From assembly GCA_000004985.1 (NCBI GenBank), contig GG739228.1: a stretch of DNA of 3,307 nt; one strand, given 5' to 3'. Made by a program: the position numbers and the translations under genes. Shown in pieces: positions 1 to 3,270 of the stretch; the stretch's first letter is position 1, and every line of letters begins with the position of its first letter. Origin of the DNA: Naegleria gruberi. Taxonomy: Eukaryota. Under the pieces are notes generated by a model, which did no database searches, was not told the origin of the DNA, and worked only from the letters and a program-made list of their open reading frames with translations.

Positions 1-18
1 AAGAATTCGAAAATGAAG

Positions 19-258
19 CAATTTAATGAGCTCACTTCGACATCCATGTATTGTGAGCTGTTTTGGAGTTTCTCTGACAACCAATGGAAAATATATGATT
101 GTAGAATATTTGGAAAATGGAAGTCTAGAAAAGGCAATTTATAATTCAAAGATGGGAAGAACAATTTTGAGATTTGAAACCAAGTTGAAAATATTAACTG
201 ATGTTGCCAAAGGATTAGTTTATTTACATTCAATCAAACCTCATAGAATTATTCATAG
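19..258 (+). CDS. Protein kinase (TKL-like Ser/Thr kinase), internal exon covering subdomains IV-VIb (LRHPCIV, MIVEYLENGSL, LKILTDVAKGLVYLH, IIH-R split codon); 5' boundary approximate, gene 5' end outside window
   Basis: The open frame translates to ..NLMSSLRHPCIVSCFGVSLTTNGKYMIVEYLENGSLEKAIYNSK..LVYLHSIKPHRIIH, matching kinase subdomains IV-VIb. An in-frame TGA at 14-16 and an AG at 17-18 imply that an intron acceptor precedes this exon. The GTATGT donor sits at 259, leaving the exon in phase 2 (ca|t ag). Confidence 0.85.
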
Positions 259-303
259 GTATGTTTACTAGTTTTATTGGAATAGATATTAATTATGGAA
301 TAG

Positions 304-433
304 AGATTTGAAACCAGGAAATTTATTACTCGATAAGAATATGAATGCAAAAGTTGGGGATTTTGGATTGAGCAAAATTGTTTCGAATAATTCTGCAACA
401 ATGACAGCAAATGTAGGAACTTTACTTTACATG
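304..433 (+). CDS. Protein kinase exon: catalytic loop and activation segment ([44 protein letters not shown])
   Basis: Intron 259-303 (45 nt, GTATGT...AATAG) joins 'ag'+'a' to give Arg of HRDLKPGN. HRDLKPGN and DFG motifs are in frame. The exon ends in phase 0 at ATG (431-433), directly followed by GTAAGT at 434. Confidence 0.85.
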
Positions 434-479
434 GTAAGTCGATAATTTCACAAATTGAATTAAAGTGTTATCAATTTAG

Positions 480-485
480 GCGCCA
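480..485 (+). CDS. 6-nt micro-exon GCGCCA encoding Ala-Pro of the kinase 'APE' motif
   Basis: The exon is flanked by acceptor TTTAG (478-479) and donor GTAAGT (486-491). Without it the conserved Y-M-A-P-E-L-L motif is lost. Reading through from 480 gives APVSNFE..* and a stop. A single intron 434-536 would delete the AP. Confidence 0.7.
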
Positions 486-536
486 GTAAGTAATTTCGAA
501 ATTCAATTCATTAAAATTTCGAATATTTTACAATAG

Positions 537-944
537 GAATTACTTTCGAATGATCACAAAGGTCAAAGTACAAAAGTGGATATTTATTCATTTGGAATTA
601 TTATGTGGGAAATTTTATTCGAAGAATCACCATTTTCAAATGAAATTGATGGTTTCACTAATGTTTTCCAAATATTGAAGAAAGTTACAAAAGGTCATCG
701 ACCACCCTTACTATTCGAAACTAGTGCTTTATTGGAGGGAGATAAAAACCAGAAAGTTGATGAATGGATTGATCATAACTTCACAAAGAAACAAATCGAA
801 ACTATTGGAAAGGAAAATATTTCTAAATTATATGAATCGTATATAGAAATTATGGAACAGTGTTGGAATCATGACGCATCTAAAAGACCTGAATTTATTG
901 AAATTACAGATCAATTAGAAACCTTGCAATCGAACTTTGCTTAA
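537..944 (+). CDS. Protein kinase terminal exon: subdomains VIII(E)-XI (ELLSNDHKGQSTKVDIYSFGIIMWEIL ... KGHRPPL ... CWNHDASKRPEFIEI) ending at TAA 942-944
   Basis: Intron 486-536 (51 nt, GTAAGT...CAATAG). The exon is in frame with the supplied ORF 576..944. DIYSFG (subdomain IX), G-RPP (X) and CW..D..RP.F.EI (XI) are present. Confidence 0.85.
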   Translation, partial: ELLSNDHKGQSTKVDIYSFGIIMWEILFEESPFSNEIDGFTNVFQILKKVTKGHRPPLLFETSALLEGDKNQKVDEWIDHNFTKKQIETIGKENISKLYESYIEIMEQCWNHDASKRPEFIEITDQLETLQSNFA

Positions 945-1001
945 TTTCCTTTATCCAATCTTTTTTAGGAATTACTAACTTTCTGGAATGTTTTCCAAGT
1001 T

Positions 1002-1007
1002 TTTATT
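1002..1007 (-). promoter_or_regulatory. AATAAA polyadenylation signal for the minus-strand vWA gene
   Basis: Plus TTTATT reads AATAAA on minus, 16 nt downstream of the TAA stop. Confidence 0.5.
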
Positions 1008-1018
1008 TCTTTCAAAGG

Positions 1019-1024
1019 TTTATT
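1019..1024 (-). promoter_or_regulatory. AATAAA hexamer overlapping the TAA stop codon of the vWA gene
   Basis: The minus strand reads gaaaTAATAAAcc. The hexamer overlaps stop codon 1023-1025. Confidence 0.4.
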
Positions 1025-1262
1025 ATTTCTTGTTGATGTCACTAAATTCATAGATTCCATTTCCATATTGTGCCATTTCTTGCATGTTAGGTGCAGAACC
1101 TGACCCAATTCCAGTAAAATGGAAGTTGGTGTCTGGATGTGCATCTCTAATAGATTTAAAGGCATCAACAGAGCTGATATCCTGAATATGACCATCACAC
1201 ATAATCAAAATATTTTCAATCTTTGGAAATTTTCTAAAAGTTTGGTTTAGGGTTTGGTGAGG
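1023..1262 (-). CDS. Second half of the same vWA domain (PHQTLNQTFRKFPKIENILIMCDGH ... HFTGIGSGSAPNMQEMAQYGNGIYEF) ending at TAA 1023-1025
   Basis: It is in the same reading frame as the 1446-2264 ORF: the two in-frame TGAs at 1443-1445 and 1263-1265 are 180 nt apart. ILIMCDG corresponds to the vWA 'llTDG' strand and GIGSGS to the 'GiG' strand. Spacing from the MIDAS Asp fits the vWA domain only if 1263-1445 is removed. Confidence 0.75.
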   Translation of the reverse strand, partial: PHQTLNQTFRKFPKIENILIMCDGHIQDISSVDAFKSIRDAHPDTNFHFTGIGSGSAPNMQEMAQYGNGIYEFSDINKK

Positions 1263-1393
1263 TCACCAAGAATGGAACATTTGCAGAGTTTGCAGTTTTT
1301 AAGGAGAAGGAATTGGTTAGAAAACCTGATTGCCTAGATTTTGATCAAGCTTCGATAATGCCTGCTATTGGAATGGCTATTGTGGAAATGTGT
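1253..1393 (+). pseudogene. Fragment of a medium-chain dehydrogenase/reductase (quinone oxidoreductase / zeta-crystallin-like) gene, antisense to and embedded in the vWA gene
   Basis: The plus-frame translation FGEVTKNGTFAEFAVFKEKELVRKPDCLDFDQASIMPAIGMAIVEM matches the MDR signature G-G-x-AEY-x-V...(K/I)P-x-x-L-x-F-x-(E/Q)-AA-x-P...TAY. Compare the human CRYZ region [37 protein letters not shown]. The open frame runs 1238-1486, but homology decays after VEM and the rest of the MDR fold is absent from the window. Confidence 0.55.
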
Positions 1394-1445
1394 CGATCAC
1401 ATGATTGGATTTTACCAATTATTGAAAGAGAGGCAGATAGAATCA
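1263..1445 (-). other. 183-nt segment interrupting the vWA ORF: non-coding on the host strand (7 stops in 61 codons), length divisible by 3, bounded by in-frame TGAs; a possible insertion, non-canonical intron or pseudogenising lesion
   Basis: Removing plus 1263-1445 joins ..GNTLL to PHQTLNQTF..ILIMCDG in frame, giving vWA-consistent spacing. There is no GT...AG at these boundaries, and no phase-compatible canonical donor/acceptor pair that keeps the GNT loop. Confidence 0.55.
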
Positions 1446-2264
1446 AAGCAAAGTATTACCCAATAATGGAACTGACCACACATTAAGAAATTGGTTTAGA
1501 GCATCCAAATCAGTAGGTTCAATTGTGTCTCTGTGTTTAAACCACTCAGTTGTAGATCCCCATAAGGCAATGGAAATTTTTAGATCTCCAGTAATAAACG
1601 CCTTGGATTGAACAAAATTATTAAAACAATCAATTAAAGTTTTGAAAGGAGATCCTTTCATTGATCCGGAAGCATCACCCAGAATAACAATCTGGCCCTC
1701 TTCAATGATAGATGATCCAGCAAGTTTTGAATTCTTACTGGTTGTCTTGAGAGAGGTATTGATTTTCAAAGCATCTGCTCTAGTGGTCACTTGAGCTGGT
1801 TCAATAATCTTTGAATTCACCTCGATACCAAAAGAAGGTATGTTGATATCCACAAAACCAGGAGGAAGAACTTGCTTGAATCTTCCATTCATATCTGTCT
1901 TGCACTCAAAGTGAGTAAAGTGAGTGTCTCTTTCGTTTTTTCTTAATTTGCAAATAGCTTGTTCATTGCTAACAGCTTCATCATGGTTTTTAAATTCAAA
2001 ACTAATATCTACCACTTTAAGATCATAGAAATCAGGGGCAACACTTCCATTACGTTCCACCTTGAACTTGAACTCTGTTAGAGGAATACTTAATTTTGCC
2101 TCACCCATTTCAATTCTTGGCTTGCAACTATAATCACCAGGATTCAACTGCTTGGTGTCAATAAAGGCAGTACAAGTTTTGACATGAGTGGTGTTTTTGA
2201 ATACCTCCAACTTGATATCTTCAGAGTATGGATTAACATAAATGGTATTTTCCTTTGGAAACAT
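1446..2264 (-). CDS. vWA-domain protein: N-terminal ~190-aa region of unassigned fold plus first half of a von Willebrand factor type A domain (MIDAS DASGSM ... GNT loop). The frame is closed by TGA at 1443-1445, which lies at the edge of the interrupting segment
   Basis: An 822-nt ORF (supplied 1443..2264). QIVILGDASGSM matches the vWA DxSGS MIDAS start, and GNT sits about 73 residues after that Asp, where the vWA GGT motif is expected. ATG at 2264 has poor context (gtccATGt), so the true start may be upstream. Confidence 0.8.
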
Positions 2265-2331
2265 GGACCTACTACTTACTTTTCAGCATCTTTGTTCTTC
2301 TTGTCAATGTCTTCTACGTTGTTCTTGACAG

Positions 2332-2616
2332 CTACAGTTGCAAAGACATCATCAAGTTGGAGATCTTTGAGCTGTTAGAACCCTCTCCACTTTTAAACTT
2401 TTCCTGCATAGCTTTAATGCTACCTCTTCTTTTTGACAATTCAGTTACTTCCTCTCTTTCCTTGGTAATTGTACTGCTTGAAGTAGAAGCAATCAAAGGA
2501 ACTTGAAGTAATGATGGCTTGACTGGAGTCCTCAAATACTTTTGATCAGTTTCATTGCTTGGCTTTTTCTCAAATTGTTGGGAAAGATTTTTAACACTGT
2601 TTGTTGTTGGTATCAT
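2332..2616 (-). CDS. Possible 5' exon (or upstream ORF) of the vWA gene: Ser/Thr/Lys/Glu-rich low-complexity 94-aa ORF starting at ATG 2616 behind an A-rich leader
   Basis: ATG has good context (aaaaaaaatcaactccaacATGa). The ORF has the same orientation and lies immediately upstream of the 2264 ORF, but in a different frame, and no strong donor/acceptor pair links them. Candidate introns of 61-124 nt exist, with weak GTAGCT/GTCTTT/GTTCTA-type donors. Confidence 0.35.
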   Translation of the reverse strand: MIPTTNSVKNLSQQFEKKPSNETDQKYLRTPVKPSLLQVPLIASTSSSTITKEREEVTELSKRRGSIKAMQEKFKSGEGSNSSKISNLMMSLQL

Positions 2617-3270
2617 GTTGGAGTTGATTTTTTTTGATTATTATTTTTCCATGACAGCAAGTCAAATGAAAGAATTTCAAATTATTATTGTAAACTGATT
2701 TTTTAGCAAATTTGCACCAACCTACCCTGTTTGATGGAAAAGAGCAACCAATCCCCAAACAGAAATAAATCAAACATGTCTGTGTTGACCTTATTTCATA
2801 TTTTTCTGGCACTAAAGGCAAGAAATAGTACTCTAGTACAGATAATATTTCTTTACAATCTTCCACTACAGTTTTCATGTCAAATCACCTGATAAATTTA
2901 TCAACCATGTTCCATTCCGACCAAATATTGTAAATTGTAATCCAACATCTCAGTTCTTGAGTGAGTAAAGGAGTTGTTCGTGAAAATTAATGATGGAAAG
3001 CAAGAGAAGGAATGCTTATATATTTCTATTGCGTATGCACCACGAATATTCTTGTTGTTATTGGGTGATATTTATTATTAATCTCCATTGAATATTATTC
3101 TTGATGATGAATTTAAAAATCCAAGGAAGGCTTCCGAACATGTTTTTTCTTGCTTGTTGCGCTTTCATTTTCCGTTAAAAATTTGCAAATAAAAAATATT
3201 TCAAAATTAAAATCACTGATGATGAAGCCATCAATTATTTCAAATAATACTTGTATCTATTATATGTAGT
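2617..3270. promoter_or_regulatory. Non-coding 5' flank / putative promoter region of the minus-strand gene, possibly a bidirectional intergenic region
   Basis: There is no sustained ORF on any frame. The A-rich leader is immediately upstream of ATG 2616. A 14-nt perfect palindrome TGATAAATTTATCA lies at 2890-2903. An AT-rich tract 3160-3270 precedes ATGATGATG at 3274. Confidence 0.35.

What the first reader, a model, noticed from the sequence alone, without database searches (positions are those of the whole stretch)
1238..1486. vWA domain bisected in frame by a 183-nt stop-laden segment carrying an antisense quinone-oxidoreductase (MDR) gene fragment
The minus-strand vWA ORF terminates at TGA 1443-1445, immediately after the GNT (GGT-loop) position. 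It resumes in the same frame after a second TGA (1263-1265) with PHQTLNQTFRKFPKIENILIMCDG...GIGSGS. Excising exactly 1263-1445 (183 nt, 61 codons) gives a vWA domain with canonical spacing: MIDAS Asp to GNT about 73 residues, and to the TDG-equivalent about 100 residues.

The excised piece has seven stops on the host strand and lacks GT-AG ends. On the plus strand it reads as an unmistakable MDR/zeta-crystallin-type motif (GTFAEFAV...KPDCLDFDQAS..P). Three explanations are possible:
(a) a recent insertion or template-switch capture of a piece of an oxidoreductase gene that pseudogenised the vWA gene;
(b) an intron harbouring a decayed antisense exon, spliced non-canonically;
(c) an unknown small insertion element.

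All three are unusual, and nothing else in the window explains the structure.
Basis: partly seen in the sequence, partly recalled or inferred. Interest (0 to 1): 0.78.

Follow-up and report, generated by a model that had tools for sequence, protein, structure and literature searches.

The report
Gene fragment patched into vWA gene
In one of two copies of a Naegleria gruberi von Willebrand-A gene, a 191-base piece copied from the amoeba's own oxidoreductase gene sits backwards in the coding sequence and truncates the protein; this looks like a scar of sloppy DNA-break repair, a known process rather than a new kind of element.

Summary
The window is a whole 3,307-bp scaffold of Naegleria gruberi NEG-M (gene NAEGRDRAFT_54905).

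- **The break in the gene.** The minus-strand VWA_3 gene is interrupted at 1253-1445. Seven stops follow in the host frame, the first being TGA at 1443-1445.
- **The donor.** Bases 1253-1443 copy codons 92-155 of the same strain's MDR oxidoreductase gene NAEGRDRAFT_69111. The match is 64/64 amino acids. It is 97.4% over 191 nt to the orthologue in a related strain. The copy lies antisense to the vWA gene.
- **Empty sites.** Two uninterrupted copies exist. One is a 98%-identical metagenome contig (L001). The other is a second NEG-M copy on a 175-kb scaffold (NAEGRDRAFT_54202). Both read ...GNT(L/M)LKQALNQTF....
- **Junctions.** There is no target-site duplication, no terminal repeat, no poly(A) and no usable GT-AG pair. 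There is a TTG microhomology on one side, 2 filler bases on the other, and a 3-7 nt target deletion.

This is the signature of a templated insertion, or "patch", at a repaired double-strand break. It truncates the domain at profile position 79 of 155.

It is a clean example of a known process in an organism where I found no report of it. Interest is modest. An assembly artefact is unlikely but not formally excluded.

The parts
1253..1443 (+). Tract copied from the MDR oxidoreductase gene NAEGRDRAFT_69111 (codons 92-155). It is sense on the + strand and therefore antisense to the vWA gene that hosts it.
   Evidence: blastn against the orthologous MDR gene on L003 (951-1141): 97.4% over 191 nt, no gaps, E 9e-91. 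BLASTP against N. gruberi P0012: 64/64 identical, residues 92-155, E 2e-45. Exhaustive phmmer: E 1.8e-33.
1254..1256 (.). Left junction. TTG is shared by the target (CTTG) and the donor (TTTG), giving a 3-nt microhomology. T1253 agrees with the donor, not with the empty sites.
   Evidence: Three-way alignment of the window, the MDR donor and the empty site. The empty-site copies encode Ala (GCC) where the window has Thr (ACC).
1444..1445 (.). Right junction. The 2 bases CA match neither donor nor target and are read as filler. Together with T1443 they form the premature TGA on the minus strand.
   Evidence: Alignments. Donor homology ends at 1443 and target homology resumes at 1446.
1443..1445 (-). 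Premature stop codon TGA created at the insertion junction. The deposited gene model P0001 ends here.
   Evidence: Translation. P0001 ends ...VPLLGNTLL.
1446..2264 (-). 5' part of the vWA gene: a 273-codon ORF with an N-terminal region, the MIDAS motif DASGS and the first half of the VWA_3 domain.
   Evidence: Pfam VWA_3 profile 2-79/155, E 3.5e-16. 98.9% identical to L001 5571-4761.
1023..1252 (-). Orphaned 3' part of the vWA gene: the second half of the VWA_3 domain, still open in the original frame, ending at TAA 1023-1025.
   Evidence: Translation. Contiguous with the 5' part in L001 and in P0014. The full VWA_3 match is restored on excision.

Best explanation
**What it is.** The window is a small scaffold of Naegleria gruberi NEG-M. 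It carries a second, about 2-3% divergent copy of a kinase-vWA locus, either an allelic haplotig or a recent paralogue.

**What happened.** In this copy a chromosome break inside the vWA coding sequence was repaired with a patch.
- 191 nt were copied from the middle of the strain's own intron-less MDR oxidoreductase gene NAEGRDRAFT_69111 (codons 92-155).
- The patch was joined in inverted orientation.
- One junction used a TTG microhomology.
- The other junction gained 2 untemplated bases.
- The target lost 3-7 nt.
- The donor gene stayed intact, so this was a copy, not a move.

**Consequence.** The net +186 nt keeps the downstream frame by chance. The antisense MDR sequence introduces seven stops, so translation ends at TGA 1443-1445 after half of the VWA_3 domain. 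This copy is a truncated gene or pseudogene, tolerated because an uninterrupted copy (NAEGRDRAFT_54202) exists.

**Shown:** the donor identity, the orientation, the empty sites, the junction anatomy, and the truncation of the domain.

**Inferred:**
- that a double-strand break was the initiating lesion;
- whether the patch was captured as a free DNA or cDNA fragment by end joining, or copied in by a microhomology-primed template switch;
- that the truncated product is non-functional.
For: - **Organism and contig.** P0001, 'predicted protein [Naegleria gruberi]', lies on a contig of 3307 bp.
- **Donor, protein level.** Exhaustive phmmer gives one strong hit, P0003, at E 1.8e-33. The next best hit is the N. 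lovaniensis orthologue at 48% identity. The 90% cluster of P0003 holds N. gruberi NAEGRDRAFT_69111 (P0012, 390 aa, on a 397-kb scaffold). The window translation is 64/64 identical to P0012 residues 92-155. P0012 is a full MDR protein: ADH_N 1.2e-14 and ADH_zinc_N_2 5.2e-11.
- **Donor, DNA level.** The match to the related strain's MDR gene is 191 nt, 97.4% identical and ungapped. This equals the general divergence between the two strains (97.9-98.9%). At both amino-acid differences the window carries the NEG-M state, so the copy was made in the NEG-M lineage.
- **Empty sites.** L001 joins window 1256 to window 1446 with only AAA between, and reads GNTMLKQALNQTF. NEG-M's own P0014 reads GNTLLKQALNQTF.
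- **Junctions.** TTG microhomology, CA filler, loss of the Lys codon, no target-site duplication, no terminal inverted repeat, no poly(A).
- **Splicing.** No GT-AG or GC-AG pair restores the domain.
- **Domain.** VWA_3 covers 2-155/155 when the segment is excised and 2-79/155 as it stands.
- **Published precedent.** The junction signature matches class 2 templated sequence insertions: no TSD and no poly(A), with microdeletion, microhomology and non-templated nucleotides (PMC5110952).
Against: - The window is a 3.3-kb orphan scaffold of a Sanger draft assembly. I could not see reads, coverage or independent NEG-M data for the junctions. No ORF of the window was on record in other assemblies.
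- NEG-M DNA of the donor gene and of the uninterrupted vWA copy was not retrievable. Identity to the NEG-M donor is therefore shown at the protein level only, and the age of the insertion is not measured.
- The right junction can also be read differently, as a 3-nt deletion in the donor tract plus CAA. The exact end-processing is therefore ambiguous.
- There are no transcript data, so truncation of the protein is predicted, not observed.
Confidence: 0.86

Rival explanations
1. The patch was copied in by a replication-based template switch (MMBIR/FoSTeS or polymerase-theta-type synthesis on an ectopic template). On this view it was not a free DNA or cDNA fragment ligated into a break. This is a variant of the mechanism, not of the identity of the segment.
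For: - Microhomology at the left junction (TTG; 3 of 4 bases of CTTG/TTTG).
- The inverted orientation and the intact donor are typical of template switching.
- The same copy carries several other blocks absent from L001: about 537 nt, 85 nt and 35 nt. These could be further switches.
Against: - The right junction has 2 bases that match neither partner and no clear microhomology. That fits end joining of a fragment better.
- No donor was found for the other blocks, so a multi-switch event is unsupported.
- Polymerase-theta insertions described in the literature retrieved are generally short and local (my knowledge).
Confidence: 0.25
2. The insertion is an artefact of cloning or assembly. On this view a chimeric read or clone placed MDR sequence inside the vWA sequence on an orphan scaffold.
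For: - The window is a 3,307-bp stand-alone scaffold, while the uninterrupted copy sits on a 175-kb scaffold.
- No independent data set containing the junctions was found.
Against: - The structure is A-B-A. The vWA sequence resumes within 3-7 nt of where it left off. That needs two coincident chimeric joins, whereas co-ligation chimeras give a single A-B join.
- The junctions carry the microhomology, filler and microdeletion typical of cellular repair.
- The scaffold also differs from P0014 and L001 at private substitutions and other indels. It is therefore a genuinely distinct copy, not a mis-join of reads from the main locus.
Confidence: 0.06
3. The segment is a newly gained spliceosomal intron, created by break repair, that is removed from the mRNA so that the vWA protein stays intact.
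For: - The net length is a multiple of 3, and the downstream half of the domain is still an open frame with few changes.
- Intron gain through break repair with inserted DNA has been proposed in other eukaryotes (my knowledge).
Against: - Enumerating all GT/GC...AG pairs gave 14 frame-preserving combinations. All 12 GT-AG pairs delete the GNT loop, and the two weak GC-AG pairs (donor GCTTTGAT) delete the following helix region instead. The only pair that keeps GNT and removes little else (1449 to 1234) still deletes 9 residues.
- The introns of the neighbouring kinase gene are 45-51 nt with GTAAGT/GTATGT...YAG ends. The segment ends look nothing like these.
- The deposited gene model terminates at the TGA.
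Confidence: 0.03
4. The segment is a small mobile element, or a gene fragment carried by one (Pack-MULE, Helitron or retroposed fragment).
For: Gene-fragment capture by transposons is known (for example PMC6544945, listed).
Against: - There are no terminal inverted repeats, target-site duplication or poly(A).
- The whole tract from first to last base is donor coding sequence, with no element sequence around it.
- There is no other copy in the window.
- Only the donor gene and its orthologues appear in the exhaustive protein scan.
Confidence: 0.02

Closest known systems
Class 2 templated sequence insertions / polymorphisms (TSI, TSIP) of human cells (Onozawa et al.; reviewed in PMC5110952)
   Same: - A stretch of about 100-200 nt copied from a distant locus of the same genome is inserted at a break.
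- The donor is left intact.
- There is no target-site duplication and no poly(A).
- The junctions show microdeletion, microhomology and non-templated bases.
- The insertion is present in one copy and absent in others.
   Different: - The organism is a heterolobosean amoeba.
- The insertion lies inside a coding exon and truncates a domain.
- The human events are argued to pass through RNA. That cannot be tested here because the donor gene has no introns.
Filler-DNA capture at double-strand breaks in yeast and plants (mitochondrial DNA, Ty cDNA, linear fragments; e.g. PMC1976456, PMC2567098, PMC11372161)
   Same: Break repair by end joining incorporates an unrelated DNA fragment. Junctions show 0-4 nt microhomology and small deletions (papers listed).
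   Different: The captured piece is nuclear single-copy coding DNA, not organellar or retroelement DNA. This is a natural event, not an induced break.
Microhomology-mediated break-induced replication / FoSTeS template switching
   Same: The tract is inverted, templated and non-reciprocal, with microhomology at a junction.
   Different: Only one junction shows microhomology and the other has filler. A single short switch is seen, and no complex rearrangement has been demonstrated.
Intron gain by break repair, and introner-like elements
   Same: New sequence is inserted into an exon of one copy and is absent from close relatives.
   Different: There are no functional splice sites and no repeated element family. 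The result is truncation, not a new intron.

Membership tests
Templated insertion at a repaired break (class 2 TSI type) | The inserted tract is a copy of a sequence elsewhere in the same genome, and the donor remains intact | tested here: met
   P0012 (NAEGRDRAFT_69111) is a full-length 390-aa MDR protein on a 397-kb NEG-M scaffold. The window matches its residues 92-155 at 64/64.
Templated insertion at a repaired break (class 2 TSI type) | An empty site exists in an allele, paralogue or close relative | tested here: met
   L001 (98% identity) and NEG-M P0014 both read straight through GNT(L/M)LKQALNQTF.
Templated insertion at a repaired break (class 2 TSI type) | No target-site duplication of 5 bp or more, and no poly(A) tail | tested here: met
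   The junction alignment shows a 3-7 nt loss of target, no duplication and no A/T run at either end.
Templated insertion at a repaired break (class 2 TSI type) | End-joining scars: microhomology, microdeletion, non-templated bases | tested here: met
   TTG microhomology on the left, CA filler on the right, and the target Lys codon lost.
Templated insertion at a repaired break (class 2 TSI type) | RNA or cDNA intermediate (claimed for the human class) | not testable with these tools
   The donor gene is one uninterrupted ORF on L003. Absence of introns in the patch therefore says nothing either way.
Spliceosomal intron | GT-AG (or GC-AG) ends whose removal restores the reading frame and the domain | tested here: not met
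   There are 14 frame-preserving pairs, and none keeps both the GNT loop and the following helix.
Spliceosomal intron | Removed from mature mRNA | not testable with these tools
   No transcript data were available.
Transposable element / MITE | Terminal repeats, target-site duplication, several copies | tested here: not met
   There are no TIR or TSD at 1253/1445 and no other copy in the window. The exhaustive scan found a single close donor. The whole NEG-M assembly could not be searched at the DNA level.
MDR (medium-chain dehydrogenase/reductase) superfamily, as the origin of the fragment | ADH_N (GroES-like) plus Rossmann ADH_zinc_N domains in the parental protein | tested here: met
   P0012 has ADH_N at 28-117 (E 1.2e-14) and ADH_zinc_N_2 at 219-388 (E 5.2e-11). 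The fragment alone has no Pfam hit at E<=1 and only weak PDB hits to MDR enzymes, E 0.04-0.19.
VWA_3 (PF13768) domain, for the host gene | Full-length profile match including the MIDAS motif DxSxS | tested here: met
   With the segment excised the match is 2-155/155 at E 7.4e-39. As encoded, only 2-79/155 lies before the stop.

The most novel reading that the evidence does not exclude
The interrupted vWA copy may still be transcribed. If so, its RNA carries 191 nt perfectly antisense to the mRNA of the MDR gene NAEGRDRAFT_69111. It could pair with that mRNA and feed an RNAi pathway. That would make the broken gene an accidental antisense or endo-siRNA regulator of its donor, as described for some mammalian pseudogenes. 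Nothing here tests this. It rests only on the orientation of the tract and on the intact upstream half of the host gene.
Probability: 0.04. Interest if true: 0.6.

Novelty: new member of a known kind. Interest (0 to 1): 0.3.

Why it matters
**Annotation.**
- It explains why gene model NAEGRDRAFT_54905 ends in the middle of a vWA domain.
- It shows that the 3.3-kb scaffold is a damaged second copy of the locus that holds NAEGRDRAFT_54202.

**Biology.**
- It is a textbook-clean natural example of a templated patch insertion. Donor, recipient and two empty sites are all identified, in a heterolobosean, a deep-branching eukaryote where I found no report on the outcomes of break repair.
- It shows that this route of gene disruption, and potentially of exon shuffling or intron birth, operates there.

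It does not reveal a new mechanism.

Tried and rejected
- **Pfam on the plus-strand fragment.** No hit at E<=1. The fragment alone is too short for the family profile.
- **The search for homologous proteins with the 82-aa fragment and the 94-aa upstream ORF.** Both returned 'no candidate'. These negatives are uninformative. The word index missed P0003/P0012, which are 95-100% identical to the first query. It also missed P0001, which contains 64 identical residues of the second.
- **Same tool with the vWA protein.** It also missed P0013 and P0014, which only surfaced through the exact-sequence cluster look-up.
- **Exact-product look-ups.** P0001, P0012, P0014 and the window's 273-aa and 94-aa ORFs are not on record. 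No NEG-M DNA for the donor or the uninterrupted copy could be fetched, and there is no independent confirmation of the junctions.
- **JGI metagenome scans.** Both the vWA protein and a 22-mer from the 537-nt block found nothing.
- **Local duplication of flanking sequence.** Rejected: the best local alignment of the segment to the rest of the window scores no better than shuffled versions.
- **Alternative genetic code (TGA reassigned).** Rejected: the segment also contains TAA and TAG stops, and both genes end at TAA.
- **Organellar origin (NUMT-like).** Rejected: the donor is a nuclear gene.
- **Rfam and tRNA scans of the window.** Empty.
- **PRJEB11402, the project of the metagenome that holds L001 and L003.** Not found in the paper library.
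Full report
**1. What the window is**

The window has 32.7% G+C. On the plus strand it carries a protein kinase gene with short GT-AG introns. On the minus strand it carries a gene with a von Willebrand A domain.

A protein search identified the deposited model for the minus-strand gene as a 'predicted protein [Naegleria gruberi]' (P0001, NAEGRDRAFT_54905). Its only contig is 3,307 bp long, so the window is an entire small scaffold of the NEG-M assembly.

**2.

- The minus-strand frame opened by ATG 2264 runs through the MIDAS motif (GDASGSM) to ...VPLLGNTLL and stops at TGA 1443-1445.
- Six more stops follow. The same frame then continues from 1262 as PHQTLNQTFRKFPKIENILIMCDG...INKK and ends at TAA 1023-1025.
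- As encoded, only positions 2-79 precede the stop.
- The deposited model also ends at this TGA.
- The plus strand is open across the whole segment.

**3. An empty site in a close relative**

The vWA search also returned P0002, from a metagenome assembly (ENA ERZ929261). Its 7,886-bp contig L001 is 97.9-98.9% identical to the window.

L001 aligns to window 1-1256 and to window 1446-2260, with only three bases (AAA on the gene strand) between the two blocks. Its reading frame passes straight through as ...VPLLGNTMLKQALNQTFRKFPKIENILIMCDG.... This ORF matches VWA_3 13-155/155. About 189 nt of the window are therefore extra relative to a near-identical locus.

**4. The donor**

- Pfam did not recognise the plus-strand translation.
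- PDB gave only weak matches, although consistently to MDR alcohol dehydrogenases (E 0.04-0.19).
- The word-indexed protein search found nothing.
- The exhaustive HMMER scan of 1.84 billion representatives gave one strong hit. P0003 matched at E 1.8e-33, 95% identity, query residues 5-69 against protein residues 92-156.
- The next best hit was P0004, a Naegleria lovaniensis enoyl-reductase-domain protein, at 48% identity. More distant hits followed.
- P0003 comes from the same metagenome as L001 (contig L003).
- Its 90% cluster contains N. gruberi NAEGRDRAFT_69111 (P0012, 390 aa, on a 396,977-bp scaffold).
- P0012 has ADH_N and ADH_zinc_N_2 domains, so it is a genuine MDR-superfamily protein.
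- The window translation is identical to P0012 at 64 of 64 residues, positions 92-155.
- At the DNA level, window 1253-1443 matches L003 951-1141 at 97.4% over 191 nt without gaps, E 9e-91, plus strand to gene sense strand. The tract is therefore antisense to the vWA gene.
- The five differences from L003 match the general divergence between the two strains. At the two amino-acid differences (R/G and D/N) the window carries the NEG-M state. The copy was therefore made from a NEG-M-lineage donor after the two strains split.
- The donor gene is one continuous ORF, so the tract is an internal piece of an exon and is not bounded by introns.

**5. The junctions**

A three-way alignment of window, donor and empty site shows the following on the plus strand.

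- **Left junction.** The target reads ...TTAGGG CTTG TTT AAGCA..., the donor reads ...TTTTTG GTGAAG..., and the window reads ...TTAGGG TTTG GTGAGG.... TTG (1254-1256) is shared by target and donor. T1253 agrees with the donor and not with either empty site, both of which encode Ala there.
- **Right junction.** Donor homology ends at T1443. CA (1444-1445) matches neither partner. Target homology resumes at A1446.
- **Target loss.** The target lost its TTT (the Lys codon), or CTTGTTT if T1253 is counted as donor.
- **Net change.** The net change is +186 nt.
- **Absent features.** There is no target-site duplication, no terminal inverted repeat and no A or T tail. The segment resembles nothing else in the window beyond chance.

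Microhomology, filler and microdeletion together are the published signature of class 2 templated sequence insertions, and of filler-DNA capture at double-strand breaks (PMC5110952; PMC1976456 and PMC2567098, listed). N. gruberi appears in a figure legend of a DNA-PKcs phylogeny paper (PMC8021618). I saw only that list of taxa, so this is at most weak, indirect support that it has classical end joining.

**6. Not an intron**

I enumerated every GT or GC donor and AG acceptor around the segment. Fourteen pairs preserve the frame. All 12 GT-AG pairs delete the GNT loop. The two pairs that keep it use the weak GC donor GCTTTGAT. The shorter of these, 1449 to 1234, still removes nine residues of the following helix.

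The kinase introns next door are 45-51 nt with GTAAGT/GTATGT...YAG ends. The uninterrupted copies have no intron at this position.

**7. A second, uninterrupted copy in the same strain**

An exact-sequence cluster look-up of L001's 150-aa vWA ORF (P0013) showed that it clusters with N. gruberi NAEGRDRAFT_54202 (P0014, 231 aa) on a 174,974-bp scaffold.

- P0014 reads ...VPLLGNTLLKQALNQTFRKFP... without the segment.
- Its N-terminus (MDHNHNNLMPEP...) corresponds to a 55-nt stretch that L001 has and the window lacks. L001 therefore looks like the orthologue of the main-scaffold copy.
- The window, P0014 and L001 each have private amino-acid states.

The window is therefore a distinct, about 2-3% divergent copy. 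It is either an allelic haplotig that failed to co-assemble or a recent paralogue. I could not fetch the NEG-M DNA to decide between these.

**8. State of the host gene**

- Between the window and L001 the vWA coding sequence shows about 3 synonymous and 6 non-synonymous substitutions. The kinase shows 6 synonymous and 4 non-synonymous.
- L001 has a 1-nt deletion upstream of the MIDAS motif, plus a compensated 2-nt and 1-nt deletion pair further upstream.

The counts are small, but they suggest weak constraint on this gene family. This fits with toleration of the truncating insertion.

**9. Mechanism and rivals**

The best-supported account is a templated patch inserted during repair of a break in one copy of the vWA gene. 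Whether a free DNA or cDNA fragment was ligated in, or the patch was synthesised by a microhomology-primed template switch, cannot be decided from one event. The filler at the right junction leans towards end joining. The inverted orientation and the other copy-specific blocks leave template switching open.

An assembly or cloning artefact is unlikely. The vWA sequence resumes within a few bases of where it stopped, the joins carry cellular repair scars, and the scaffold has its own private substitutions. It is not excluded, because I saw no reads.

A mobile element and a functional intron are both rejected on tested features.

**10. Verdict**

The boundaries are refined to 1253-1445, and the donor gene and two empty sites are identified.

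The phenomenon belongs to a known class, so it is a new member of a known kind. It is useful for annotation and is a neat natural example in a heterolobosean, but it is not a surprise to a DNA-repair specialist.

Noticed in passing
window 434-536 (+): The kinase gene seems to contain a 6-nt micro-exon, GCGCCA (480-485), that encodes the Ala-Pro of the conserved APE motif. It lies between two introns of 46 nt (434-479) and 51 nt (486-536), both with GTAAGT...AG ends. Splicing it in gives ...GTLLYMAPELLSND... and a full Pkinase match. All three substitutions against L001 in this stretch (442, 457, 465) fall inside the 434-479 intron, so the micro-exon and every splice site are unchanged in L001.
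   Followed up: partly
window 2281-2817, 2846-2930, 2970-3004; L001 4612-4761: The 5' region of the vWA gene differs structurally from L001. The window has about 537 nt in place of 15 nt of L001. This block includes the 94-codon ORF 2332-2616(-), which the deposited model uses as exon 1. The window also has an extra 85 nt and an extra 35 nt or so, and it lacks a 55-nt stretch present in L001 and, judging from the P0014 N-terminus, in the main NEG-M copy. I could not find where the window-only blocks come from, so it is open whether they are further captured pieces or deletions in the other copies.
   Followed up: partly
L001 4803, 4839, 5258 (window 2218-2217, 2180, 1760): The empty-site contig is not a perfect gene either. 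Relative to the window it has a 1-nt deletion in an A run just upstream of the MIDAS motif, which splits the gene into two ORFs (P0002 and P0013). It also has a 2-nt plus 1-nt deletion pair that shifts 13 codons near the N-terminus. Either that strain's copy is also decaying, or parts of this region are not coding.
   Followed up: partly
window 2127-2616 (-) and P0014: The two deposited N. gruberi models for the two copies (P0001 with 309 aa, P0014 with 231 aa) use completely different 5' exons. Both splice out the ORF region MFPKENTIYVNPYSED...NPGDYS, which is continuous with the rest of the gene in the window. P0014 additionally lacks HPDTN and has an extra NN near the C-terminus. The true gene structure is unverified.
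   Followed up: no
window 1266-1278 and 1460-1472 (+): There is a 13-nt near-repeat, CCAAGAATGGAAC / CCAATAATGGAAC (12/13). One copy lies 13 nt inside the left end of the MDR tract and the other 14 nt beyond its right end in vWA sequence. It could have helped the two loci pair during repair. Repeats of this size are common by chance in this AT-rich window: one search lists 25 such families.
   Followed up: partly
L001 626-3573 (-): In the related strain, the locus upstream of the vWA gene encodes a biotin-carboxylase / HMGL-like (pyruvate-carboxylase-type) gene split into several ORFs. This is useful as a flank marker for deciding whether the window is allelic to the 175-kb-scaffold copy.
   Followed up: no
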